UHGV virus genome: UHGV-0004901
DNA length: 38,194 nucleotides
Reading direction: 5' to 3' (one strand)
DNA from: a virus
Shown here: positions 5,145 through 38,059 of the stretch, piece by piece
How positions within the stretch are numbered: the stretch's first letter is position 1
How the letters are laid out: the number at the start of each line of letters is the position of its first letter
Notes under the pieces: model-generated
What the model was told of the DNA's origin: nothing
Databases searched by the model: none
Seen by the model: the letters and a program-made list of their open reading frames with translations, nothing else
Made by a program: the position numbers and the translations under genes

Positions 5145-5234
5145 TTACCTCGGTCTGTTACCGTTGAGGTAATAATTATGCGTATCTGGTTTGATGTCAA
5201 TAGATATGAGTTAAAAAAATTACCCATTAGGTAA
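5145..5234. promoter_or_regulatory. Leftward early promoter/operator region (OL-like): TTACCGTTGAGGTAA (5158..5172), TTACCCATTAGGTAA (5220..5234) and an extra TTACCTC half-site (5145..5151)
   Basis: Palindromes read directly; lie between the repressor-gene terminator and the first leftward gene. Confidence 0.6.
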
Positions 5235-5243
5235 TCGAATAGG

Positions 5244-5271
5244 CAATAAAAAAGCCGCCAGAAGGCGGCTT
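5244..5271 (-). terminator. Rho-independent terminator after the repressor gene
   Basis: Minus-strand hairpin AAGCCGCC-TTCT-GGCGGCTT followed by a T-run. Confidence 0.65.
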
Positions 5272-5291
5272 ACTTACTGAAAAATATGATT

Positions 5292-5876
5292 TTATTGTTT
5301 GTTTTTTTCGTTCTGGTTGATGACAAATTCAATGTAACTTTCGATCTTTGCTTTCTCGGTTTCGGGTAACAATGCGTAGCGCGAGCGATCATAGTTGATG
5401 GTCGCAGGGTCGTGCGGGTGAATCAGTAATTCATAGCCGTGACGCCCGAATGCGGATGCAACATTCTCCAGGGTGGAAATGGAAACGCTGACCTCATTGT
5501 TTAACAGGCGGCTGATTGTCACCTGGGCGACGCCGGATGCGCGGTGTAGTTTTCCCTGCGTTGAAAGGTCGCGGCTTTCGCTCATCCAGCGTTCCAGGTT
5601 GTGAGCCGCCAGCTGACCTATATCACTCGGGCCGACAGGCTGAAAACCTTCCTGAGAAAGCGAGCGATCGATATCAAGCCAGTTACGGGGTTTATTGGCG
5701 GCAGCTTCAATTTTTCGCGCAACCTGGTCGCCGATAACCTTCTTGCCAAGAGCCCAGCGGTTTACCAGATTTGCCTGAGTTCCAAGTTTTTCTGCCATCC
5801 GCGTCTGAACACCATTGAATTCACGGTCGATCAAGTCGTTGAGATTTTGCCTGCGGACGTCCTGGATACTTTTCAT
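5292..5876 (-). CDS. Immunity repressor (CI-like) with two HTH domains and no S24 peptidase domain
   Basis: 194 aa; two XRE-type HTH-like segments (…TRMAEKLGTQANLVNRWALGKK… and …ASGVAQVTISRLLNNE…); divergent from the Cro-like gene across an operator cluster. Confidence 0.7.
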   Translation of the reverse strand: MKSIQDVRRQNLNDLIDREFNGVQTRMAEKLGTQANLVNRWALGKKVIGDQVARKIEAAANKPRNWLDIDRSLSQEGFQPVGPSDIGQLAAHNLERWMSESRDLSTQGKLHRASGVAQVTISRLLNNEVSVSISTLENVASAFGRHGYELLIHPHDPATINYDRSRYALLPETEKAKIESYIEFVINQNEKNKQ

Positions 5877-5931: not shown

Positions 5932-5994
5932 TTACCCAACAGGTAAATGCACCTCATAGGTAACTATCCTTGATTTTTGTTACCTTATGGGTGA
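5932..5994. promoter_or_regulatory. Immunity switch operators (OR-like): TTACCCAACAGGTAA (5932..5946), GCACCTCATAGGTAA (5949..5963), TTACCTTATGGGTGA (5980..5994)
   Basis: Three tandem 15-bp palindromic sites between the divergent repressor and Cro-like genes. Confidence 0.7.
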
Positions 5995-6030: not shown

Positions 6031-6261
6031 ATGAGCGATAACGGACATTTCGATTTCAAAAAGCACTGGCTTGCACTTACTCCGGATGAGCGTGAAGCCT
6101 TCGCACAGGAAGCCGGAACGACGAGTCACTATATCCAGACTCACTTAACAGGTAAGCGCAAAATGCCAGGTAAAGTATTGATGAATGGGCTTTTTAAAGC
6201 CTGTAAAACAAGACAATGGCTGCGCTTAAAAGCAGAACTGGCATACTTCTTCTACTCATGA
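6031..6261 (+). CDS. Cro-like small DNA-binding protein
   Basis: 76 aa, divergent from the repressor across the operator cluster; HTH-like segment LTPDEREAFAQEAGTTSHYIQTHLTGKR. Confidence 0.55.
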   Translation: MSDNGHFDFKKHWLALTPDEREAFAQEAGTTSHYIQTHLTGKRKMPGKVLMNGLFKACKTRQWLRLKAELAYFFYS

Positions 6262-6282
6262 TATCCAGCTACAACCCTCTGT

Positions 6283-6308
6283 AGACCGCCACCCGGCGGT
6301 CTTTTCAT
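6283..6308 (+). terminator. Rho-independent terminator after the Cro-like gene (tR1-like)
   Basis: GACCGCC-ACCC-GGCGGTC hairpin followed by TTTTC. Confidence 0.6.
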
Positions 6309-6316
6309 ATCTATTC

Positions 6317-6331
6317 GTACCTCAAAGGTAA
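6317..6331. promoter_or_regulatory. Operator-like palindrome GTACCTCAAAGGTAA downstream of the Cro terminator
   Basis: Direct reading. Confidence 0.45.
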
Positions 6332-8366: not shown

Positions 8367-8711
8367 ATGAGAAAACAGATGCAGGCTCTTGGTCGACTCA
8401 AAACAGGCCAGATGAACAAAACAGAATCTGCGTATTGCCAGCATCTTGAGCAGCGTAAACGTGCAGGGGAAATCGCCTGGTATCGATTCGAGGGTATCAA
8501 GCTGCGGTTAGCTGATAACACGTTCTATACGCCAGATTTCGCTGTGATGCTCGCCACCGGAGAGATGGAACTGCACGAAGTGAAAGGTTTCTGGACCGAC
8601 GACGCCAGGGTGAAAACCAAAGTCGCCGCAGATCAGTATCCGTTCCGAATCATCGGGGTAACGGTTAAGCCAAAGAAAGCAGGTGGCGGATGGAAAATCG
8701 AAGAGTTCTGA
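8367..8711 (+). CDS. Small PD-(D/E)XK-like protein (DUF1064-like; possible nuclease/resolvase)
   Basis: 114 aa; ...YTPDFAVMLATGEMELHEVKG... fits a PD...E.K motif; family assignment from memory only. Confidence 0.45.
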   Translation: MRKQMQALGRLKTGQMNKTESAYCQHLEQRKRAGEIAWYRFEGIKLRLADNTFYTPDFAVMLATGEMELHEVKGFWTDDARVKTKVAADQYPFRIIGVTVKPKKAGGGWKIEEF

Positions 8712-9937: not shown

Positions 9938-10345
9938 ATGACCACTATTACCAAAGAGCGACTGCTGACAATCAAGCAGTGGCGCGAAACATACGGACCG
10001 GGTAGCAACGTTGTACTGCCAGCAGAAGAAGCGGAAGAACTGGCACGAATTGCACTGGTATCGCTGGAAGCAGAGCCGGTGGCAAAGATTATAGCTCATT
10101 ACCCATTAGGAGTTGACGTAGGCAAACAAAAGTTCGTACAGGCCATTGGAGAGCTTCCTGACTTTGGCGGATATCTATTTGCCGCCCCGCCAGCGCCGGT
10201 AGTGCCGGAAGAAGCAACTCCGGAAAACGTAGAAATGCTCTCTGGCTATGTTTCCACGTACAAATTAACCGATAGCGAGCGCGATATTGCTGCCGAAATA
10301 TGGAACGCCTGCCGCGCCGCTATGCTTCATGGGAAAGGAGAGTGA
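9938..10345 (+). CDS. Hypothetical protein, paralog of the 10621 gene (shared MTTITKER N-terminus)
   Basis: 135 aa; conserved junction AAAGGAGAGTGAGATG. Confidence 0.5.
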   Translation: MTTITKERLLTIKQWRETYGPGSNVVLPAEEAEELARIALVSLEAEPVAKIIAHYPLGVDVGKQKFVQAIGELPDFGGYLFAAPPAPVVPEEATPENVEMLSGYVSTYKLTDSERDIAAEIWNACRAAMLHGKGE

Positions 10346-10346
10346 T

Positions 10347-10610
10347 ATGGCAACTTTAACAAAAAAAGAACGGGCATGGTTGAACGAATTACAGGACGTT
10401 CTTGATCGCTGCCCATCACCGAAAAAAATTGGTTTTTACACCATTGGCGATAAAAGCATTTACCTGTATGACCTGCGCCGCATGGATGAAATCATGGAGG
10501 CTCTTGATAATCGTTCGTCAATGGATTGGTGTGTTGCTGTCCATGATATGAATGCAGGGTTTGATGAAAAGATTTTGTTCCCCTCATCAGTTGAAAGCAC
10601 TGCGGGTTAA
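10347..10610 (+). CDS. Hypothetical protein
   Basis: Start at ATG 10347 after conserved junction AAAGGAGAGTGATATG; track ORF trimmed. Confidence 0.45.
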   Translation: MATLTKKERAWLNELQDVLDRCPSPKKIGFYTIGDKSIYLYDLRRMDEIMEALDNRSSMDWCVAVHDMNAGFDEKILFPSSVESTAG

Positions 10611-10620
10611 GGAGTAACAC

Positions 10621-11199
10621 ATGACCACTATTACCAAAGAACGTATTGAATTGTTCATTAAAAATCCGCTTGGAAACGGACTTACCCGTGGCGAACAAAT
10701 GGAACTGGCACGAATTGCACTGGCATCACTGGCAGCAGTATCGGATGAACGAGCAGCCTATGAATTATTTATGGAGAAGCGTTTCGGGGAATCTGTAGAT
10801 CGCCGCAGGGCGAAAAATGGCGATAGAGAATACATGGCATGGGATATGGCGCTTGGCTGGATTATCTGGTGTCACCGCGCCGCCATGCTTCAGGCTGGAA
10901 ACTTTCGGGAAAATAAGGATTCGTCAACCAATAATTTTCGGGAAACCTCGGAAACGTCAACCAACTCTCCGGTAACTCCGGATAGTTGGATAAGCTGTAG
11001 TGAGCGAATGCCTGAGAAGAATCAGAACGTGCTCATTTCGGTGAATTTCGATAGCTCTCTGGTTGAACCGCTAATATGCTCCGCACGCTATACCGGAAGC
11101 ACTTTTCGGCGCGGAGATGCAACGATTAAGTCGGGTAATGGTATTGAGCAAGCAACTCACTGGATGCCGCTACCGGAACCGCCGCAGGAGGTGAAATGA
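10621..11199 (+). CDS. Hypothetical protein with DUF551-like C-terminal domain
   Basis: 192 aa; N-terminus paralogous to the 9938 gene; C-terminal ...WISCSERMPEKNQNVLI...THWMPLPEPP resembles DUF551 (from memory). Confidence 0.5.
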   Translation: MTTITKERIELFIKNPLGNGLTRGEQMELARIALASLAAVSDERAAYELFMEKRFGESVDRRRAKNGDREYMAWDMALGWIIWCHRAAMLQAGNFRENKDSSTNNFRETSETSTNSPVTPDSWISCSERMPEKNQNVLISVNFDSSLVEPLICSARYTGSTFRRGDATIKSGNGIEQATHWMPLPEPPQEVK

Positions 11200-11535: not shown

Positions 11536-11877
11536 TTGATGGCTAAATCAGCAGCAGAGCGCAAAGCCGCTCAGAGAGCCAGACAAGCTGAATCCGGTGT
11601 ACGTAAGCTGGAGATTGTGCTTGATGCTCAGGAAATTGAAATGCTGGAGCGGAACTGCGCCGCCCGGCGCCCTGGTCGAGATCCCTATGAAATGGCCGAG
11701 TACATCGCGCTGATGATCCGCCAGGATGATGCCCGGGTGCGCGGGCGTATAAAATCGATCAGCAGAAAACGTTGCGGTAAGTGCGGCGAGAGAGTTCCAG
11801 TTAATTCATGCCCGTGTAATGGTGACTCGCAATGCTGGGTGACTAAAGGCTGGCATGAAACGAAATTAATAGTGTGA
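11536..11877 (+). CDS. Putative late-gene regulator: N-terminal basic/RHH-like region and C-terminal Cys-rich motif
   Basis: 113 aa; ...RKRCGKCGERVPVNSCPCNGDSQCW; sits directly upstream of the terminator that precedes the packaging operon; its stop codon lies inside a GTGACATGTCAC palindrome. Confidence 0.4.
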   Translation: MMAKSAAERKAAQRARQAESGVRKLEIVLDAQEIEMLERNCAARRPGRDPYEMAEYIALMIRQDDARVRGRIKSISRKRCGKCGERVPVNSCPCNGDSQCWVTKGWHETKLIV

Positions 11878-11885
11878 CATGTCAC
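11874..11885. repeat. 12-bp perfect palindrome GTGACATGTCAC (copy 1 of 3)
   Basis: Direct reading; overlaps the TGA stop of the 11536..11877 gene. Confidence 0.8.
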
Positions 11886-11926
11886 GAGTAGATTATGCAT
11901 GATGAATTTGATGGGTTTTGAATACT

Positions 11927-11952
11927 GCCGCCAACTATGGCGGCTTTATTTT
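11927..11952 (+). terminator. Rho-independent terminator upstream of the packaging operon (tR'-like)
   Basis: GCCGCC-AACTAT-GGCGGC hairpin followed by TTTATTTT. Confidence 0.6.
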
Positions 11953-11956
11953 GCAT

Positions 11957-11988
11957 GGTACTATTACCACAACGGTAACTATTACCAC
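11957..11988. promoter_or_regulatory. Direct repeat GGTA(A)CTATTACCAC x2 immediately upstream of the terminase small subunit gene; contains everted half-sites GGTAA-N3-TTACC
   Basis: Direct reading. Confidence 0.4.
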
Positions 11989-11995
11989 GGTGGTT

Positions 11996-12592
11996 ATGAT
12001 GCCTGCTGAACCTAAAACCTATAAACGCAAATCAACGCAATTTAAGCCACTAACAGCAATGCAGGAGGCTTATTGCCAGTCATACATCAAAACGCCTGAA
12101 AACCAGACTCAGGCAGCGATTAACGCAGGATTCTCCCCAAATACAGCGGCAGTTAAAGCCAGTGTCATGATGCGCGATGAACGCATTCAAAAACGGATTG
12201 CCGAGCTGATGGAGGAGCGCAACAAACGAATGCGCGTCAGTGCCGATTACGTTCTTATGCGCCTGGTGGAGATCGACCAGATGGATGTGATCGACATCCT
12301 CAACGACGATGGGAGCCTTAAACCAATCCGTGAGTGGCCGAAAATCTGGCGCACTACGCTTAGTGGCTTTGATCTGTCATCGACCATCATGAACATGAAC
12401 GAGGATTCGATAGAGACAATCCTCAAAAAAATTAAATGGCCTGACAAGGTGAAGAACCTTGAGCTGATTGGTAAGCATGTTGATGTCAACGCGTTCAAAG
12501 AACGTCTGGATGTTAATGTGAATGTGACAATTGCTGATCGCATAGCAGCAGCCAGGAAGCGACTCAAAGAACGTCAGGATGGTAATCAGTGA
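11996..12592 (+). CDS. Terminase small subunit
   Basis: Position immediately upstream of the large subunit with a 4-bp overlap; start moved to ATG 11996 because the track ORF start at 11918 reads through a terminator. Confidence 0.65.
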   Translation: MMPAEPKTYKRKSTQFKPLTAMQEAYCQSYIKTPENQTQAAINAGFSPNTAAVKASVMMRDERIQKRIAELMEERNKRMRVSADYVLMRLVEIDQMDVIDILNDDGSLKPIREWPKIWRTTLSGFDLSSTIMNMNEDSIETILKKIKWPDKVKNLELIGKHVDVNAFKERLDVNVNVTIADRIAAARKRLKERQDGNQ

Positions 12593-14113: not shown

Positions 14114-14140
14114 AAGCCAGCTCATCGGCTGGCTGTTTGT
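14114..14140 (+). terminator. Rho-independent terminator after the terminase large subunit gene
   Basis: AGCCAGC-TCATC-GGCTGGCT hairpin followed by GTTTGT; immediately followed by a GTGACATGTCAC palindrome. Confidence 0.55.
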
Positions 14141-14150
14141 GACATGTCAC
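14139..14150. repeat. 12-bp perfect palindrome GTGACATGTCAC (copy 2 of 3)
   Basis: Direct reading. Confidence 0.8.
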
Positions 14151-14154
14151 GGTG

Positions 14155-14511
14155 TTATTGCTCGCTTAACTTCTGCTTCAGCAAGTAACCTTCGAGCATC
14201 CAGATTTTGTTTACAGCATTCTGCCGGGCAATCTTCCGACCAATTTCTGCATCAAAATTTTCCGGACTTGCACAGGCACTCTCTCCGGTGACGGTGAAGC
14301 CATTCTTCAGTACCAATACGCAGAAAGTCAGGAGGTCTGTAGATTTATGCGCTGTCCATGAATCGCCAACGCCCATATTGGCAGCACGAATGCCGTCATA
14401 AGCAGTAAAGAAATGCTCTTCAAGAATGATGCTTTCGATATATTGAGGCGTAACTCGCGGAGCGGTTTTGCCTTTCTCAACGATTTCTTTTTCGATTTGC
14501 TGGTCGTTCAT
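14155..14511 (-). CDS. Hypothetical protein (118 aa), reverse-oriented insert between terminase and portal
   Basis: ORF with SD AAGGTGAG; preceded directly by a terminator hairpin; no recognisable motif. Confidence 0.55.
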   Translation of the reverse strand: MNDQQIEKEIVEKGKTAPRVTPQYIESIILEEHFFTAYDGIRAANMGVGDSWTAHKSTDLLTFCVLVLKNGFTVTGESACASPENFDAEIGRKIARQNAVNKIWMLEGYLLKQKLSEQ

Positions 14512-14522
14512 AATCTCACCTT

Positions 14523-14546
14523 AAAAAAATGCCCGGCGAACCGGGC
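14523..14546 (-). terminator. Rho-independent terminator downstream of the tRNA, abutting the SD of the 14155..14511 gene
   Basis: Minus-strand GCCCGG-TTCG-CCGGGC hairpin followed by a T7 run. Confidence 0.65.
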
Positions 14547-14709
14547 GAACTGGAAGCAATGAGTTATGCCTTCCGTGGCTGTACTGGTTTACAGCATGAA
14601 GTCATCGCAATGGCGTCCTGCTGTAAAAAGGGCGGTGATAGTCCTTCAAGGGAAACCATCACCGCCAAGCCCCTGGAACTTCTGGCATCACGGTCCTTAG
14701 GCGTGATTC

Positions 14710-14786
14710 TGGCGTGGCATGCAGGATTCGAACCTGCGACCAACCGCTTAGAAGGCGGTTGCTCTGTCCAACTGAGCTAATGCCAC
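14710..14786 (-). tRNA. tRNA-Arg, anticodon UCU (decodes AGA), phage-encoded
   Basis: Folded by hand: 7-bp acceptor stem GUGGCAU/AUGCCAC, D-arm GCUC..GAGC, anticodon stem ACCGC/GCGGU with loop CUUCUAA, T-arm GCAGG-UUCGAAU-CCUGC, discriminator G and encoded CCA. Confidence 0.85.
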
Positions 14787-31333: not shown

Positions 31334-31630
31334 ATGCAAGCGATAGGATTCATTGTTTATATCGTCGTTGGTCTTTTTCAGTTGGCAGCAATTATGGCTG
31401 GGCTTGAATCATGGTGGGGATTGCACTGGATAATTGCAGCCCCCATTGCTTTCATCGTGAGCTATATTCCATTTGTTGGAGCGATTGTTGGTATGGTTGG
31501 CGCTGTGGATGTATGGCGGTGGGAGTGGTGGCAGGCTGGCCTTCTCTTCTTTGGTGGGATCATCTTTGCTATTGTCTGCGGTGGAATGTCATCATTTTTC
31601 GAATGGCTATCATTCAGAAAAGGAACGTGA
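31334..31630 (+). CDS. Small integral membrane protein (3-4 predicted TM segments); candidate holin or exclusion protein
   Basis: 98 aa, hydrophobic throughout, Trp-rich loops; stop codon embedded in a GTGACATGTCAC palindrome. Confidence 0.5.
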   Translation: MQAIGFIVYIVVGLFQLAAIMAGLESWWGLHWIIAAPIAFIVSYIPFVGAIVGMVGAVDVWRWEWWQAGLLFFGGIIFAIVCGGMSSFFEWLSFRKGT

Positions 31631-31638
31631 CATGTCAC
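31627..31638. repeat. 12-bp perfect palindrome GTGACATGTCAC (copy 3 of 3)
   Basis: Direct reading; overlaps the TGA stop of the 31334..31630 gene in the same register as copy 1. Confidence 0.8.
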
Positions 31639-32672: not shown

Positions 32673-33383
32673 TCAGAAGAACCCTGCCTTGTCGTTGATG
32701 TATTCCGCGTGCGTCTGGATATCACGCAGGCATTTGCTCACACCGACGATGTAGCAGAACATGGTGGTCAGCTCCGCCGCCGCGCCCGATACGTCGTGCC
32801 CGTCTTCCTGTAACTGGTTCAGCAGATTCATCAGCAGTGAGTTCTCCGTCAGGCCGAGAACACCAGACGGCGAGTGAATCAGGCTGCGGTAGCCGGGCTT
32901 CAGCGGGGCGCTGTAGGTTTTGTTCTCTATCTTCATTGCCTGCATCACTGCTGATGCTGTGGCGTTTGCAACCTGGTCGGCAACCATCTTTATGCGTTCT
33001 TCCTGCGGGAGCGAGTTTTTAATGTAACTTCCGGTGCGGCGGATCTGAGGAAGAACCTCACCTGTAACCCATTTACGAAAGCGGTAGGGGATAGTGCCTG
33101 GTGTCACTGCGTCGCGGCAGCGGAGGATCAGTGTGTAGAGGCCTGACTCGGAGATGATGTTGATCTCTTTTACTCGGCTGTCAAAAATTGCACGATGTTC
33201 ATGCCCTATGTTGAACATAGACCTTTCATCATCATCCAGTTTTTCAAGTGCTTGGGTGACGTTTTGGATACGCAGCGCACTACAAACGTCTTGGGCTACA
33301 AACCATGGTTGGCCATCGATAATGATGGAACGGATAGGGTTAACAGATTCAAATTTGAAGATGGCAGTTTGAGCATTAGCCAT
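32673..33383 (-). CDS. ant: Antirepressor with Bro-N/KilA-N-type N-terminal domain
   Basis: ...FESVNPIRSIIIDGQPWFVAQDVCSALRIQN...GLYTLILRCRDA... matches Bro-N; start at ATG 33383 with SD GGAG. Confidence 0.8.
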   Translation of the reverse strand: MANAQTAIFKFESVNPIRSIIIDGQPWFVAQDVCSALRIQNVTQALEKLDDDERSMFNIGHEHRAIFDSRVKEINIISESGLYTLILRCRDAVTPGTIPYRFRKWVTGEVLPQIRRTGSYIKNSLPQEERIKMVADQVANATASAVMQAMKIENKTYSAPLKPGYRSLIHSPSGVLGLTENSLLMNLLNQLQEDGHDVSGAAAELTTMFCYIVGVSKCLRDIQTHAEYINDKAGFF

Positions 33384-33652
33384 GGTGGTTATCTCCACTT
33401 AGTGATTTTAATCACCACCGCAACGCCAATTACTGGTGGTGAACTGGACAAGGTTGGCGTACCGGCCTAAGTGGTACCGGCGTCCTTTCGGACCCCTGCC
33501 CAGCCCACCATAATTCGGATATAGCTGTGCTTAACGCATAAAAAAACCACGTCTGGCGTGGTATGCGCCACTTAGTAACTCGGGACGCCAATCCCGGCAC
33601 TGGATTTTGCCAGTACCCGATTACTATGGCACAAGAGGAGTGCGATGTAAAT

Positions 33653-34984: not shown

Positions 34985-37900
34985 ATGACGGTCTCAACCG
35001 AAGTTGACCACAACGAATACACCGGTAACGGAGTTACGACATCATTTCCGTATACCTTCCGTATTTTCAAAAAATCCGACCTGGTTGTTCAGGTGTCTGA
35101 TCTGAACGGGAACGTAACAGAATTGGTGCTTGATACCGGTTATAAGGTAACTGGAGCGGGCACTTATAGTGGCGGTGAAGTGGTTCTTCCGTCGCCGCTT
35201 GCTGCTGGCTGGCGAATTACGATAGAGCGTGTGCTTGATGTGGTGCAGGAGACTGATCTTCGCAATCAGGGAAAATTTTTCCCCGAAGTTCATGAGGATG
35301 CATTCGACTACCTGACGATGCTGATCCAGCGATGTTTTGGGTGGTTCAGACGTGCATTGATGAAGCCCTCGCTGCTTGCAAAATATTACGATGCAAAGCA
35401 AAACAAAATTTCTAACCTTGCAGATCCATCACTTGAGCAGGACGCTGTAAATAATCGTTCAATGCGTAAGTATGTGGATGCTGCAATTGCTGGTGTTGTC
35501 GGTGGTTTCGGATGGTTTATCCAGTATGGTGCTGGAGCTGTATACAGAACGTTCCAGGATAAGATGCGTGATACAGTAAGTGTGAAAGATTATGCTGCTG
35601 TTGGAGATGGTATAACTGATGATACGAATTCTTTTATTCTGGCTCCTGAAAATGCTTATGTTCCACCTGGAGTATATCTTGTTGATACGTTGAAAGTAGA
35701 TGTAAGCAAAATGACAGGGGAAGGGATGATTCTTTCCAAAACTGGTCATCTACTTTCTCTTCGTAATAATATCAGTAATACATTGGTGCAACGCCATTTA
35801 ATGGAAGCATTTATGGGTTTTGGTGAGTCCCAAGTTTTTCCAAATGGTGAGGCTACAAGTCAAGGGTGTGCTTATGCGAATTATAATGGTAAAAAATTAT
35901 TTATTTTACAAACGGTTGTTGGCAGTGCTGAAGGTAGTGGAAACTTCAACTCTAAAGTAACATCAGCTGGTGACTTCATAACCGGAATTGAATATGAAAT
36001 AGTAAGTATAGGTTCAACTGATTTTACAACTATAGGGGCTGCTGAAAATAATATTGGTGTACGATTTACGGCGAATGGTCCAGGGGTTGGTACAGGAACA
36101 GCAGCTGCTTTAGAGAAGCGCAGGCTGGTTGAATACTCGTTTTCTGATGATGGTTCAGTAGTGCAAAATACTACTTACACTGCACCAATATTAAATAACC
36201 ATCAGGGAATATCTACGATAGTTATTGATGATGACCTTTTTATTTATACCCAAATGGTTACCCAGCCTACATATCGAGGAAATGATGGAGGAAAAGGTTA
36301 TTCAAAATTAATTTGGAAAGGGAGCAGCACATCTGAATCTGATGTGATTACTTATCAGCTTTTTGGATATTCTGGTTCTGGTCATCCTTATCAGAATTAT
36401 AATTCAGCAACCCCGTGTGTATCTTCAGATGGAAGGTATGTTGTTCTTGTTGCAACTGATAGCACAGCAGATGATGATGCCTGGTATGTATTTGTTTACA
36501 GCAGGATACACGTAGAATCCCTTGACAATAGTTTGGAAGCAAGACCATTGTATTATTTCAGGATTCCACATCCGCAGCGCGGAACTGATACTCATGTTAT
36601 TCAAGATGTTGCCAGTGATGGTAAGTACATCTATATATTAAGGGGATATACACATCCGTTCATGTTGCATATTATTCAGAAGTTTGATTATTCTGGTAAT
36701 ATTCTTGCTGAATTTTCATTTGAGGGGGCTCGTTCTCTTTATGGATACAAAAATCTTATGGATAATCCAAAGTATGGGACCCCCCATTCATTTGAACCTG
36801 AAGGTATAGACATGTATGAAGGAGACCTTATTATTCTAACTATGGATAATTGGGATTCTGGAGCTTCTATTATAACTTACAAAGGAAAGAATTATTCCGC
36901 TTTTTCTACTGCTTCTGGTATTGCTCCGGATGATCCCGATGGATTTAGAATGTGGGCGATAACAAATAAAGTTAGTGGTGGGGAATACTCGAATGATAAA
37001 AAGTACAGCGATGGAGTGTATTCGAAACGAGGAAAACAGATATTTCTTATTTCACAATCGCGTGGGGTTGCTAATGAACTCCCATTGAATTCCGCCTTGA
37101 CAACTCGTGTTAATAACTCACCACTTTCTTCTATAAGTTCTGCTTTTGATGTTTCCTTTAAATTAGGAGAGAACTGGATATTGGGGGGGTATTCAGAAAA
37201 TACTTCAGAATATAAAAAAGCCATTCAGTATGCTAGTAATGGTGCTTTTCGTGTTCATGATTCCCGCAGAGAATCTGACAATAATAAGTACTGGTCTATA
37301 CGTGGTGGATATGATGTAACACCGCAGATACAAGAAGTTGTTGAATTTAGGTGTCGTGGTACTGTAGAAAATGGGGCTGGCTGGAATGCTTATGGTTCTA
37401 ATGACTATCGCTTACCAAACAGGTTTCGTATGTTCCCTGGCGGGAGCTTTGGCGGTACTCAAGTTCTTGTCGAGATAGCTAATCCAGTTAATGATAATCC
37501 TTATTTTGCTCCCACAGGGCAGATAGGAACAGTTAATAATGGTACAACGACAGCATACTGGAATAACATATATAGCAAGAATGCTGTCACTGTTGTTTCA
37601 GATGTTAATTACAAAGATGAATTCTCGGATATACCGACTGAACTTATTGAAGCCGTGGGTAGTGTAAAATTTCAAATGTGGAAGATGAAGGATGAAATAT
37701 TACGAAAAGGAAGTGAACATGCCAGATATCATTTTGGAGTTGTAGCGCAGCAAGTTAAGGATGCAATTACAAAAGCTGGTCTTGATTGGAAGAAGTATGG
37801 TCTTATTACGTATGAAGAAACCAGTGTTTTGGTAAGAGAAAACGAATCTGGTGATTTTTATCCTATTGATATTGAGTCTTGTCCAATTCCAGTTAATGAA

Positions 37901-38059
37901 TTTGGGATTATTAAATTAATAGAAGGTGCAGATGAAATTAAAGAAGATAAACATGGAAATTTGGTATTGACAAGATCTATTTACATGATGCGTATGGATG
38001 AATTTGAAATAATAAGGATGGCATATCAAGAAAAGAAAATAGCGGATCTAATAAGTTAA
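34985..38059 (+). CDS. Tail fibre/tailspike protein: T7 gp17-like N-terminal virion-attachment domain, AT-rich distal receptor-binding region, C-terminal chaperone-like segment
   Basis: N-terminus ...TGNGVTTSFPYTFRIFKKSDLVVQV...RITIERVLDVVQETDLRNQGKFFP resembles the T7 tail fibre N-terminal domain; GC drops from about 50% to about 36% after roughly 35.6 kb; C-terminal ...SDVNYKDEF...YHFGVVAQQVKD... resembles intramolecular chaperone (S74-like) domains. Confidence 0.8.
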   Translation: MTVSTEVDHNEYTGNGVTTSFPYTFRIFKKSDLVVQVSDLNGNVTELVLDTGYKVTGAGTYSGGEVVLPSPLAAGWRITIERVLDVVQETDLRNQGKFFPEVHEDAFDYLTMLIQRCFGWFRRALMKPSLLAKYYDAKQNKISNLADPSLEQDAVNNRSMRKYVDAAIAGVVGGFGWFIQYGAGAVYRTFQDKMRDTVSVKDYAAVGDGITDDTNSFILAPENAYVPPGVYLVDTLKVDVSKMTGEGMILSKTGHLLSLRNNISNTLVQRHLMEAFMGFGESQVFPNGEATSQGCAYANYNGKKLFILQTVVGSAEGSGNFNSKVTSAGDFITGIEYEIVSIGSTDFTTIGAAENNIGVRFTANGPGVGTGTAAALEKRRLVEYSFSDDGSVVQNTTYTAPILNNHQGISTIVIDDDLFIYTQMVTQPTYRGNDGGKGYSKLIWKGSSTSESDVITYQLFGYSGSGHPYQNYNSATPCVSSDGRYVVLVATDSTADDDAWYVFVYSRIHVESLDNSLEARPLYYFRIPHPQRGTDTHVIQDVASDGKYIYILRGYTHPFMLHIIQKFDYSGNILAEFSFEGARSLYGYKNLMDNPKYGTPHSFEPEGIDMYEGDLIILTMDNWDSGASIITYKGKNYSAFSTASGIAPDDPDGFRMWAITNKVSGGEYSNDKKYSDGVYSKRGKQIFLISQSRGVANELPLNSALTTRVNNSPLSSISSAFDVSFKLGENWILGGYSENTSEYKKAIQYASNGAFRVHDSRRESDNNKYWSIRGGYDVTPQIQEVVEFRCRGTVENGAGWNAYGSNDYRLPNRFRMFPGGSFGGTQVLVEIANPVNDNPYFAPTGQIGTVNNGTTTAYWNNIYSKNAVTVVSDVNYKDEFSDIPTELIEAVGSVKFQMWKMKDEILRKGSEHARYHFGVVAQQVKDAITKAGLDWKKYGLITYEETSVLVRENESGDFYPIDIESCPIPVNEFGIIKLIEGADEIKEDKHGNLVLTRSIYMMRMDEFEIIRMAYQEKKIADLIS

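What the first reader, a model, noticed from the sequence alone, without database searches (positions are those of the whole stretch)
11536..11995. Late-operon control region: Cys-rich small regulator, palindrome, intrinsic terminator and direct repeats ahead of the terminase genes
The 113-aa protein (RHH-like N-terminus, CGKCG...CPCNG...C tail) is followed by GTGACATGTCAC, then a strong terminator (11927..11952), then GGTA(A)CTATTACCAC x2 immediately before the terminase small subunit gene. A terminator placed just before the late operon resembles the lambda pR'-tR' arrangement, and suggests the small Cys-rich protein is a Q-like antiterminator or late activator.
Basis: inference. Interest (0 to 1): 0.5.

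Follow-up and report, generated by a model that had tools for sequence, protein, structure and literature searches.

The report
Repressor-controlled packaging promoter behind a terminator
In this epsilon15/phiV10-type E. coli prophage the DNA in front of the packaging genes is a terminator followed by a promoter that the prophage's own repressor appears to switch off directly, and the small cysteine-rich protein next to it is a DNA-binding protein of unknown role whose probable binding site sits on its own stop codon in many unrelated phages.

Summary
The lambda Q / pR'-tR' reading does not hold.

- **Direct repeats.** They are two tandem copies of a 15-bp inverted repeat, TTACC-N5-GGTAA. It occurs 15 times in the window (0.56 expected), including the repressor/cro intergenic region. 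They are most likely operators of the prophage repressor, a homolog of SPC32H Rep.
- **Promoter.** Just upstream of the repeats lies an extended -10 element, TGnTAnTAT. It is invariant in diverged relatives, including some that lack the terminator. The terS operon therefore most likely has its own promoter, repressed directly by Rep.
- **Terminator.** It ends the early-right operon.
- **41-nt spacer.** It is the remnant of a deleted accessory gene.
- **112-aa protein.** The model is a ribbon-helix-helix fold with a 4-Cys zinc module. Homologs also occur in phages that carry their own Q gene (N15, lambda-like) and in a P2-like phage.
- **Palindrome.** GTGAC-NN-GTCAC overlaps or follows this gene's stop codon across all those phage types. 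It occurs three times here, each time beside a stop codon and a terminator. I infer it is the protein's binding site; its function is unknown.

The parts
11539..11877 (+). Gene for a 112-aa ribbon-helix-helix plus 4-Cys zinc-module protein (PHROG 536; homolog of N15 gene 46). It is the last gene of the early-right operon.
11874..11885 (.). 12-bp palindrome GTGAC-AT-GTCAC embedded in the stop codon; inferred binding site of the RHH-Zn protein (site 1).
   Evidence: Three exact copies against 0.0022 expected. The same arms lie within -20..+30 nt of the homolog's stop in 34 of 57 species-level loci, and in N15, a P2-like Yersinia phage and a lambda-like phage.
11895..11921 (+). 8-codon remnant (MHDEFDGF*) of a deleted accessory ORF; a variable accessory-gene slot.
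   Evidence: Relatives carry, between palindrome and terminator, a roughly 65-aa ORF ending ...DEFDGL*, an 86-aa ORF, or a umuD-like gene with a LexA box, or only 22 nt.
11927..11952 (+). Intrinsic terminator (GCCGCCA-ACUA-UGGCGGC plus UUUAUUUU) ending the early-right operon.
   Evidence: dG -14.5 kcal/mol. Conserved next to terS in most relatives.
11956..11964 (+). Inferred extended -10 promoter element TGgTACTAT (P_terS); predicted transcription start near 11971.
   Evidence: TG, T-12, A-11 and T-7 are invariant while positions -13 and -10 vary across relatives with 66-89% TerS identity, including loci without the terminator. Flagged promoter-like in the window, E15 and Kp4865-1.
11964..11978 (.). 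Operator O1, TTACC-acaac-GGTAA, overlapping the last base of the -10 element and the predicted start site.
   Evidence: half-sites conserved, spacer variable.
11982..11996 (.). Operator O2, TTACC-acggt-GGTTA (1 mismatch), overlapping the terS ribosome-binding site.
   Evidence: The 18-bp centre-to-centre spacing from O1 resembles the 17-bp pair at 5932/5949.
11999..12592 (+). Terminase small subunit gene.
   Evidence: Pfam Terminase_2 E 1e-29. Start chosen by alignment with relatives.
14139..14150 (.). Palindrome site 2. It lies 5 nt after the stop of the minus-strand gp49-like gene and 4 nt before that operon's terminator, which is shared with terL.
   Evidence: The terminator stem shows compensatory changes between the window, E15 and Kp4865-1.
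31627..31638 (.). Palindrome site 3. It overlaps the TGA stop of the last gene of the structural operon and lies 1 nt before terminator GGCCGC-tttc-GCGGCC-TTGTTTTT.
5292..5876 (-). Prophage repressor (Rep), the probable protein binding TTACC-N5-GGTAA.
   Evidence: 100% identical to the phiV10 repressor. Homolog of SPC32H Rep, PDB 5d50_A, E 4e-42. Operators at 5932, 5949 and 5980 lie between it and cro.

Best explanation
The 11.5-12.0 kb stretch is a junction between two transcription units of a Uetakevirus (epsilon15/phiV10-type) prophage.

1. **End of the early-right operon.** It ends with the gene for a ribbon-helix-helix/zinc DNA-binding protein. That gene's stop codon is embedded in a 12-bp palindrome, GTGAC-AT-GTCAC, which I infer to be the protein's own binding site.
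2. **Spacer.** The vestige of a deleted accessory gene follows.
3. **Terminator.** An intrinsic terminator stops early-right transcription.
4. **terS promoter.** Immediately after the terminator, terS has its own sigma70 promoter of the extended -10 type (TGgTACTAT). Its start site and ribosome-binding site are covered by two tandem operators, TTACC-N5-GGTAA.
5. **Repression.** These operators are the same motif as in the repressor/cro region. One tetramer of the SPC32H-Rep-type prophage repressor is predicted to bind the O1-O2 pair and shut the packaging operon off directly in the lysogen. Cro may use the same sites.
6. **Induction.** Removal of Rep by the antirepressor would open this promoter together with the other operator-bearing promoters.

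The packaging operon is therefore repressor-operated and insulated by a terminator, not opened by Q-type antitermination.

Shown: the motifs, their statistics, their conservation, the fold of the protein model and the homology of the repressor.

Inferred: who binds what, the promoter and its start site, and the role of the RHH-Zn protein. My best guess for that role is a site-specific factor acting at operon ends next to stop codons and terminators (boundary or roadblock function).
For: - **Operator motif.** 15 matches against 0.56 expected, clustered at operon starts. Three lie in the Rep/cro intergenic region.
- **Same motif in relatives.** 15 sites at equivalent positions in Salmonella E15 and in Klebsiella Kp4865-1, and none in lambda-like Chlobot.
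- **Link to the repressor.** Motif counts of 8-13 occur only in genome loci that also encode a Rep homolog, with one distant exception.
- **Conservation upstream of terS.** Half-sites are conserved while the N5 spacers vary. TGnTAnTAT is invariant even where the upstream sequence differs and the terminator is missing.
- **Promoter geometry.** At the pL-type promoter, which has a perfect TTGACA, the last T of the -10 element is the first T of the operator. This holds in all three genomes.
- **Repressor identity.** Identical to the phiV10 repressor and homologous to SPC32H Rep. Per PMC9782041 the phiV10 repressor has the same sequence as vB_EcoP_ZX5 ORF21, whose overexpression cut holin transcription by 99.97%. 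SPC32H Rep binds palindromic sites as a tetramer (PMC9638917).
- **RHH fold.**
- **Palindrome linked to the gene across phage types.**
- **No antiterminator found.** No N-, Q- or Ogr-like gene among the early genes scanned.
Against: - No experimental transcription start, footprint or binding data were available to me.
- The promoter has no -35 element and only 4 of 6 matches in the -10 hexamer, so it may need an activator. The RHH-Zn protein is the only unassigned regulator in the early-right operon.
- Operator flanks are A/T-rich, which inflates -10-like matches.
- All Uetakeviruses examined share the same half-sites, so I could not test covariation between repressor and operator in a heteroimmune relative.
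- If all promoters open at once, the temporal delay of late genes is unexplained.
- In one distant phage (L091) a GTGAC-AC-GTCAC site lies 12 nt upstream of terS, which keeps a terS-related role for the RHH-Zn family open.
- The papers most likely to describe these operators (Kropinski 2007; Kim and Ryu 2013; Kim 2016) could not be read.
Confidence: 0.6

Rival explanations
1. First reader's model. The 112-aa protein is the late-gene switch. It would be either a Q-like antiterminator that lets transcription pass the terminator into terS, or an activator of the terS promoter acting from the palindrome.
For: - The gene lies immediately upstream of terS in all Uetakeviruses, the position taken by RinA-type late activators in Gram-positive phages (own knowledge).
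- No other candidate late regulator was found.
- The predicted promoter lacks a -35 element.
- A distant homolog's phage has a site 12 nt before terS.
- PHROG labels the family 'transcriptional regulator'.
Against: - Homologs occur in phages that carry their own Q gene (N15, an N15-like prophage, lambda-like Chlobot) and in a P2-like Yersinia phage. They sit in other positions there, near xis/int or after gene A.
- The distance from palindrome to promoter varies from 22 nt to more than 300 nt, with genes inserted between.
- Some relatives lack the terminator.
- The other two palindromes lie at operon ends, not before promoters.
- The fold is RHH, with no Q or Ogr/Delta match.
Confidence: 0.15
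2. The RHH-Zn protein with its GTGAC-NN-GTCAC sites is a self-contained accessory module unrelated to terS control. It could be a repressor of the adjacent SOS-regulated accessory-gene promoter, or a DNA-organising or bridging protein analogous to MatP/matS. In that case its proximity to terS in Uetakeviruses is incidental.
For: - In Klebsiella and Citrobacter relatives the palindrome lies 6-7 nt upstream of the -35 element of a LexA-box promoter driving a umuD-like gene or an 86-aa gene.
- Gene and site travel together into different genomic contexts.
- The arms are identical to the matS consensus GTGACRNYGTCAC (own knowledge), with N2 instead of N3.
- Three sites per genome in Uetakeviruses and in N15.
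Against:
- Sites 2 and 3 are not next to promoters.
- The accessory gene is deleted in this window while the site is kept.
Confidence: 0.2
3. The repeats before terS are packaging (pac) or terminase-recognition sequences rather than operators.
For: They sit next to terS, where pac sites often lie. Two public records of relatives are opened within this region.
Against: The same 15-bp motif occurs about 15 times per genome, including the repressor/cro intergenic region and in front of early genes. A pac site is expected once.
Confidence: 0.03

Closest known systems
Salmonella phage SPC32H Rep/Ant immunity system (Rep structures PDB 5d4z, 5d50)
   Same: The window's repressor is a full-length homolog (E 4e-42). 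An antirepressor with a BRO-N domain is also present. Rep is described as a tetramer binding palindromic sites, which fits the paired operators spaced 17-18 bp apart.
   Different: I could not read the original papers. I therefore do not know whether the operator sequence, or operators outside the immunity region such as those before terS, were reported.
Phage P1 C1 repressor with operators dispersed over the genome, plus the immI region (c4 antisense RNA and ant)
   Same: One repressor motif is dispersed at many operon starts. A C4-type antisense RNA and isrK lie upstream of the antirepressor gene (Rfam).
   Different: P1 operators are asymmetric 17-mers. P1 late genes need the C1-controlled activator Lpa (own knowledge). 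Here the operators are symmetric and sit directly on the packaging-operon promoter.
Lambda Q / pR'-tR' late control
   Same: A regulator gene followed by its putative DNA site, and a terminator ahead of the late genes.
   Different: No promoter or short leader lies upstream of the terminator. The site is embedded in a stop codon, not in a promoter. The fold is RHH. The family coexists with genuine Q genes. The terminator is dispensable in some relatives.
MatP/matS (E. coli Ter macrodomain)
   Same: RHH DNA-binding fold. Palindrome arms GTGAC/GTCAC are identical to matS (own knowledge). A few sites are dispersed per replicon.
   Different: The spacer is 2 bp, not 3. No sequence homology. There is no four-helix bundle or coiled coil, and a zinc module is present instead.
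TraR/DksA C4 zinc-finger RNA polymerase-binding proteins (including lambda Orf73)
   Same: The C-terminal helix plus CxxC...C zinc module aligns weakly with TraR and YbiI (E 0.026-0.04; hhalign 59.7%). Like orf73, homologs in lambda-like phages lie in the exo-xis region (orf73 position from PMC8614690).
   Different: The match is below significance. There is no Pfam zf-dskA_traR hit. The fourth Cys is placed differently, and no conserved acidic tip is present. An RHH domain precedes the module.

Membership tests
Ribbon-helix-helix (Arc/MetJ/CopG) DNA-binding proteins | beta-strand, helix, turn, helix fold that pairs into a dimer | tested here: met
Ribbon-helix-helix (Arc/MetJ/CopG) DNA-binding proteins | Sequence match to an RHH profile | tested here: inconclusive
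   No Pfam hit for the window protein. Weak RHH_5, RHH_1 and RepB-RCR_reg hits in a few family members. NCBIfam YbfE, E 0.064.
Ribbon-helix-helix (Arc/MetJ/CopG) DNA-binding proteins | Binds a short repeated or palindromic operator | not testable with these tools
   Only association is available: GTGAC-NN-GTCAC lies next to the gene in 34 of 57 loci and in four phage types.
Lambda Q-type antiterminators with pR'-tR' arrangement | Homology to a Q family (Pfam Phage_antiter_Q and relatives) | tested here: not met
   No Pfam hit at E up to 1. None among the top 25 families in 59 family members. The fold is RHH.
Lambda Q-type antiterminators with pR'-tR' arrangement | Constitutive promoter with a Q-binding element just upstream of the terminator, giving a short terminated leader | tested here: not met
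   Only a chance-level promoter match. The spacer is a gene remnant and varies from 22 to more than 300 nt. Function was not assayed.
Lambda Q-type antiterminators with pR'-tR' arrangement | The terminator is an obligatory barrier before the late genes | tested here: not met
   Kp4865-1, L094 and L100 lack the terminator but keep the promoter/operator block.
Ogr/Delta zinc-finger late activators (P2/P4) | Pfam Ogr_Delta homology | tested here: not met
   No Pfam hit.
Ogr/Delta zinc-finger late activators (P2/P4) | TGT-N12-ACA element at about -55 of late promoters | not tested
   I did not search for this element. A family member occurs in a P2-like Yersinia phage, after gene A.
DksA/TraR C4 zinc-finger family | CxxC-N17-CxxC zinc finger preceded by a long helix; profile match | tested here: inconclusive
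   hmmsearch E 0.026-0.04 to TraR and YbiI. hhalign probability 59.7%. No Pfam hit. The Cys pattern here is CxxC-x8-CxC-x5-C.
Rep (SPC32H-type) operators | Motif present in the repressor/cro intergenic region and associated with presence of the repressor gene | tested here: met
   Sites at 5932, 5949 and 5980. Counts of 8-13 only in loci with a Rep homolog. None in Chlobot.
Rep (SPC32H-type) operators | Rep protein binds the site | not testable with these tools
   Needs EMSA or footprinting.
Intrinsic (Rho-independent) terminator | GC-rich hairpin followed by a U-tract, conserved | tested here: met
   In vivo activity was not tested.

The most novel reading that the evidence does not exclude
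The RHH-zinc protein (phrog_536, N15 gp46 family) and its GTGAC-NN-GTCAC site form a previously undescribed two-part module. The protein would bind DNA at the very end of genes and operons, on the stop codon and just before the terminator, and act there on elongating or terminating RNA polymerase. It might do so through its TraR-like zinc module, as a DNA-tethered boundary, termination or anti-termination factor. The module is shared by epsilon15-, lambda-, N15- and P2-type phages.
Probability: 0.1. Interest if true: 0.8.

Novelty: new variant of a known kind. Interest (0 to 1): 0.5.

Why it matters
How epsilon15/phiV10-type phages switch on their packaging and structural genes does not seem to be established, and no Q-, N- or Ogr-like regulator is detectable here.

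The data suggest a simple and testable design. One tetrameric repressor sits on paired operators at every operon start, including directly on the packaging promoter. Terminators wall the operons off from one another. These phages are present in about 12% of complete E. coli genomes and are used as reporter and typing phages, so knowing the late promoter is practically useful.

Separately, a small DNA-binding protein whose probable site is embedded in its own stop codon is conserved from N15 to P2-like phages. That is an unexplained regularity worth an experiment.

Tried and rejected
- **Q / Ogr / Delta homology:** no Pfam, NCBIfam or PDB sequence match.
- **First AF2 model:** built from 25 close homologs, it was poor (pLDDT 59.6). 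The 59-sequence alignment fixed this.
- **Other fold searches:** Foldseek against PDB and BFVD gave nothing useful. The afdb50 library was unavailable.
- **TraR/DksA relationship:** only marginal. Kept as a lead, not a claim.
- **MatP homology:** rejected at sequence level.
- **Direct-repeat reading of GGTA(A)CTATTACCAC:** not significant as such. Replaced by the inverted-repeat operator.
- **Promoter between palindrome and terminator:** chance-level and not conserved.
- **RNA hairpin reading of the palindrome:** the 5-bp arms would leave a 2-nt loop, and the variation is confined to the two central bases. This fits a dimeric DNA-binding site better.
- **Rfam:** no known RNA element in 11.5-12.0 kb.
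- **Literature:** no paper holds the string GTGACATGTCAC. Kropinski 2007, Kim and Ryu 2013 and Kim 2016 are not held. The vB_EcoP_ZX5 paper does not treat this gene or the operators.
- **Genome-collection scan with the diverse alignment:** Repeated with the closer alignment.

Full report
**Context.** The window is an almost complete Uetakevirus (epsilon15/phiV10/TL-2011b-type) prophage.
- It is 100% identical over the finding to a prophage of E. coli SW070919.
- The finding's 460 bp occur in 639 of 5426 complete E. coli genomes, where the gene is annotated 'hypothetical protein'.
- Gene order: integrase, early-left genes, repressor (5292-5876, minus strand), cro (6031-6261), replication genes, DUF551 and DUF4222 genes, the 112-aa gene, terS, terL. 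Then come a minus-strand gp49-like gene with tRNA-Arg, the portal and structural genes, and last the antirepressor region and a 1024-aa ORF (34985-38059).

**Observation.** All four listed features are at the stated positions.
- The ORF starts at the ATG at 11539, giving 112 aa, because all homologs begin MAKS.
- The terminator is canonical: a 7-bp GC stem, a 4-nt loop and UUUAUUUU, dG -14.5 kcal/mol.
- The palindrome GTGACATGTCAC overlaps the TGA stop.
- The two 'direct repeats' exist, but as a 15-mer repeat they are no better than chance.

**What the repeats are.** The significant unit is the inverted repeat TTACC-N5-GGTAA, at 11964-11978 (exact) and 11982-11996 (one mismatch).
- It has 15 matches in the window at up to one mismatch, against 0.56 expected, and no shuffle reached 15.
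- The sites lie at operon starts:

| Position(s) | Location |
|---|---|
| 5932, 5949 (2 mismatches), 5980 | between repressor and cro |
| 5158, 5220 | flank a leftward promoter with a perfect TTGACA |
| 8287, 8349 | flank a promoter before the gene at 8367 |
| 15109 | between the tRNA/gp49 operon and the portal operon |
| 136, 6317, 32586, 33653, 33746, 34866 | before int, after cro, and in the antirepressor region |

- Salmonella phage E15 and Klebsiella phage Kp4865-1 each have 15 such sites at equivalent positions. Lambda-like phage Chlobot has none.
- In 57 species-level genome loci, counts of 8-13 occur only where a homolog of the repressor is also present.

**The repressor.**
- It is 100% identical to the phiV10 repressor and 42% identical to that of epsilon15.
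- It is a full-length homolog of SPC32H Rep (PDB 5d50_A, E 4e-42).
- That Rep is reported to bind palindromic sites as a tetramer, with DNA-binding domains contributed by different dimers (PMC9638917).
- Per PMC9782041, the phiV10 repressor has the same sequence as vB_EcoP_ZX5 ORF21. Overexpression of ORF21 reduced holin transcription by 99.97%.
- I conclude the repeats are Rep (and probably Cro) operators. The O1-O2 pair, 18 bp centre to centre, resembles the 17-bp pair in the immunity region and would fit one tetramer. Binding itself is inferred.

**A promoter between terminator and operators.** Aligning terS upstream regions from relatives with 66-89% TerS identity shows TGnTAnTAT directly abutting O1.
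- TG, T-12, A-11 and T-7 are invariant, while positions -13 and -10 vary freely. This is the pattern expected for an extended -10 sigma70 promoter.
- The element is kept in Kp4865-1, L094 and L100. There the upstream sequence is unrelated and there is no terminator.
- At the pL-type promoter the last T of the -10 element is the first T of the operator, in all three genomes.
- The predicted start is near 11971, inside O1. O2 covers the ribosome-binding site, and the true terS start is the ATG at 11999.
- This promoter is inferred from conservation, not shown.

**The spacer and the terminator.**
- The 41 nt between palindrome and terminator contain ATG CAT GAT GAA TTT GAT GGG TTT TGA.
- Relatives carry one of several things at that place: a roughly 65-aa ORF ending ...DEFDGL*, an 86-aa ORF, a umuD-like gene with its own LexA-box promoter, or only 22 nt.
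- The spacer is therefore a deletion remnant in a variable accessory-gene slot, not a leader.
- The palindrome stays with the regulator gene. The terminator stays with terS.

**The protein.**
- PHROG 536 'transcriptional regulator', E 4.8e-54. No Pfam or PDB sequence hit.
- A full-library HMMER search found 152 clusters at 50% identity with E up to 1e-3, with full-length members down to about 30% identity.
- With a 59-sequence alignment, AF2 gave pLDDT 92.2.
- The family conserves C79, C82 and C99, plus a Cys at position 91 or 93.
- A profile search of PDB put TraR, TraR and YbiI on top at E 0.026-0.04, and hhalign gave 59.7%. This is a lead only.

**Genomic distribution argues against a dedicated late switch.** Homologs are found in:
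- N15 (gene 46) and an N15-like prophage, both with a Q gene;
- lambda-like Chlobot, which has N and Q, where the homolog lies between exo/bet and xis/int;
- prophages where it lies next to integrase;
- a P2-like Yersinia phage, where it follows gene A;
- Vibrio and Aeromonas phages.

**The palindrome.**
- Three exact copies are present in the window against 0.0022 expected, P about 2e-9.
- Each lies 0-5 nt from a stop codon. Sites 2 and 3 lie 1-4 nt from an intrinsic terminator; at site 1 the terminator lies 41 nt downstream, beyond the accessory-gene remnant:
  - site 1, after the regulator gene;
  - site 2, after the minus-strand gp49-like gene, whose terminator shows compensatory stem changes between genomes;
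  - site 3, after the last gene of the structural operon.
- E15 and Kp4865-1 also have three copies.
- In 57 genome loci from many genera, 34 have GTGAC-NN-GTCAC within -20..+30 nt of the homolog's stop. This includes cases where the site lies a few nt beyond a different stop codon.
- Forty further sites lie in the 1.08 Mb of flanks against about 1 expected.
- Only the two central bases vary (AT, AC, GT, CT, AG, TG, GC).
- In N15 the site GTGACTGGTCAC overlaps the stop of gene 46, with two more copies in the genome. In the P2-like Yersinia phage GTGACGCGTCAC overlaps the stop of the homolog. In Chlobot the single copy follows the gene.
- This linkage across phage types, at 34-100% protein identity, makes the palindrome the likely binding site of the RHH-Zn protein.
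- The arms equal those of matS (GTGACRNYGTCAC, own knowledge) with one base less in the spacer. There is no sequence homology to MatP.
- What the protein does at stop codon/terminator junctions is unknown. In some relatives the site lies 6-7 nt upstream of a LexA-box promoter. In one distant phage it lies 12 nt before terS.

**Verdict.**
It is wrong on mechanism.
- The best-supported picture is a terminator-insulated packaging promoter operated directly by Rep.
- The RHH-Zn gene and its palindrome form a separate, widely shared module of unknown function.
- The main uncertainties are the lack of any binding or transcript data, and my inability to read the three papers that may already describe the operators.

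Noticed in passing
window 136; 5158; 5220; 5932; 5949; 5980; 6317; 8287; 8349; 15109; 32586; 33653; 33746; 34866: A genome-wide network of TTACC-N5-GGTAA operators at nearly every operon start. Pairs spaced 62 bp apart flank the core promoter at 5158/5220 and 8287/8349. The same layout occurs in E15 and Kp4865-1.
   Followed up: partly
window 33432-33515 (-) and 33540-33616 (-): Rfam C4 antisense RNA (66 bits) and isrK (63.5 bits) lie just upstream of the BRO-N antirepressor gene (32673-33398, minus strand). This is a P1 immI-like RNA control of the antirepressor.
   Followed up: no
L003 4349-4420; L004; L064; L080; L093; L094; L102; L106-L108: In Klebsiella, Citrobacter and other relatives the slot after the palindrome holds an accessory gene (umuD-like or an 86-aa protein). 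It has its own promoter overlapped by a consensus LexA box, e.g. TACTGTTTAAATATACAGTA.
   Followed up: partly
window 14155-14786 (-): A minus-strand unit (tRNA-Arg(tct) plus an N4 gp49/Sf6 gp66-family gene) is inserted between terL and the portal operon. It is apparently driven by a leftward promoter (TAGACA, 18 nt, AATTAT) overlapping operator 15109. It ends at palindrome site 2 plus a terminator.
   Followed up: partly
window 6280-6331 and 5220-5275: The arrangement 'intrinsic terminator, then 15-19 nt, then an operator' recurs after cro (GACCGCC-accc-GGCGGTC-TTTTC, then operator 6317). It also recurs after the repressor gene on the minus strand, mirroring the arrangement before terS.
   Followed up: no
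L125, L130, L132, L135-L138, L143, L147 (about 4 kb upstream of the homolog): In Xenorhabdus, Providencia and Rouxiella prophages that lack a palindrome next to the gene, GTGACATGTCAC sits at an internal gene junction. There its TGA is a stop and its ATG the next gene's start (...GGR* / MSH...).
   Followed up: no
L088 1065; 1336; 3804; 8151; 9481; 12236: The N15-like prophage carries six copies of TGGGACC-NN-GGTCCCA. This resembles the F sopC / N15 dispersed centromere repeat (own knowledge) and is unrelated to the finding.
   Followed up: no
L150 (N15) 28550 and 33237: The two extra GTGAC-NN-GTCAC sites of N15 lie upstream of the antirepressor operon (genes 32-30) and inside repA. An N15-like prophage (L088, position 1092) has a GTGACTGGTCAC site inside its repA as well.
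   Followed up: no
window 9938-11199: Several adjacent paralogous genes share the N-terminal MTTITKER... motif (9938-10345 and 10621-11199). The latter carries a DUF551 domain.
   Followed up: no
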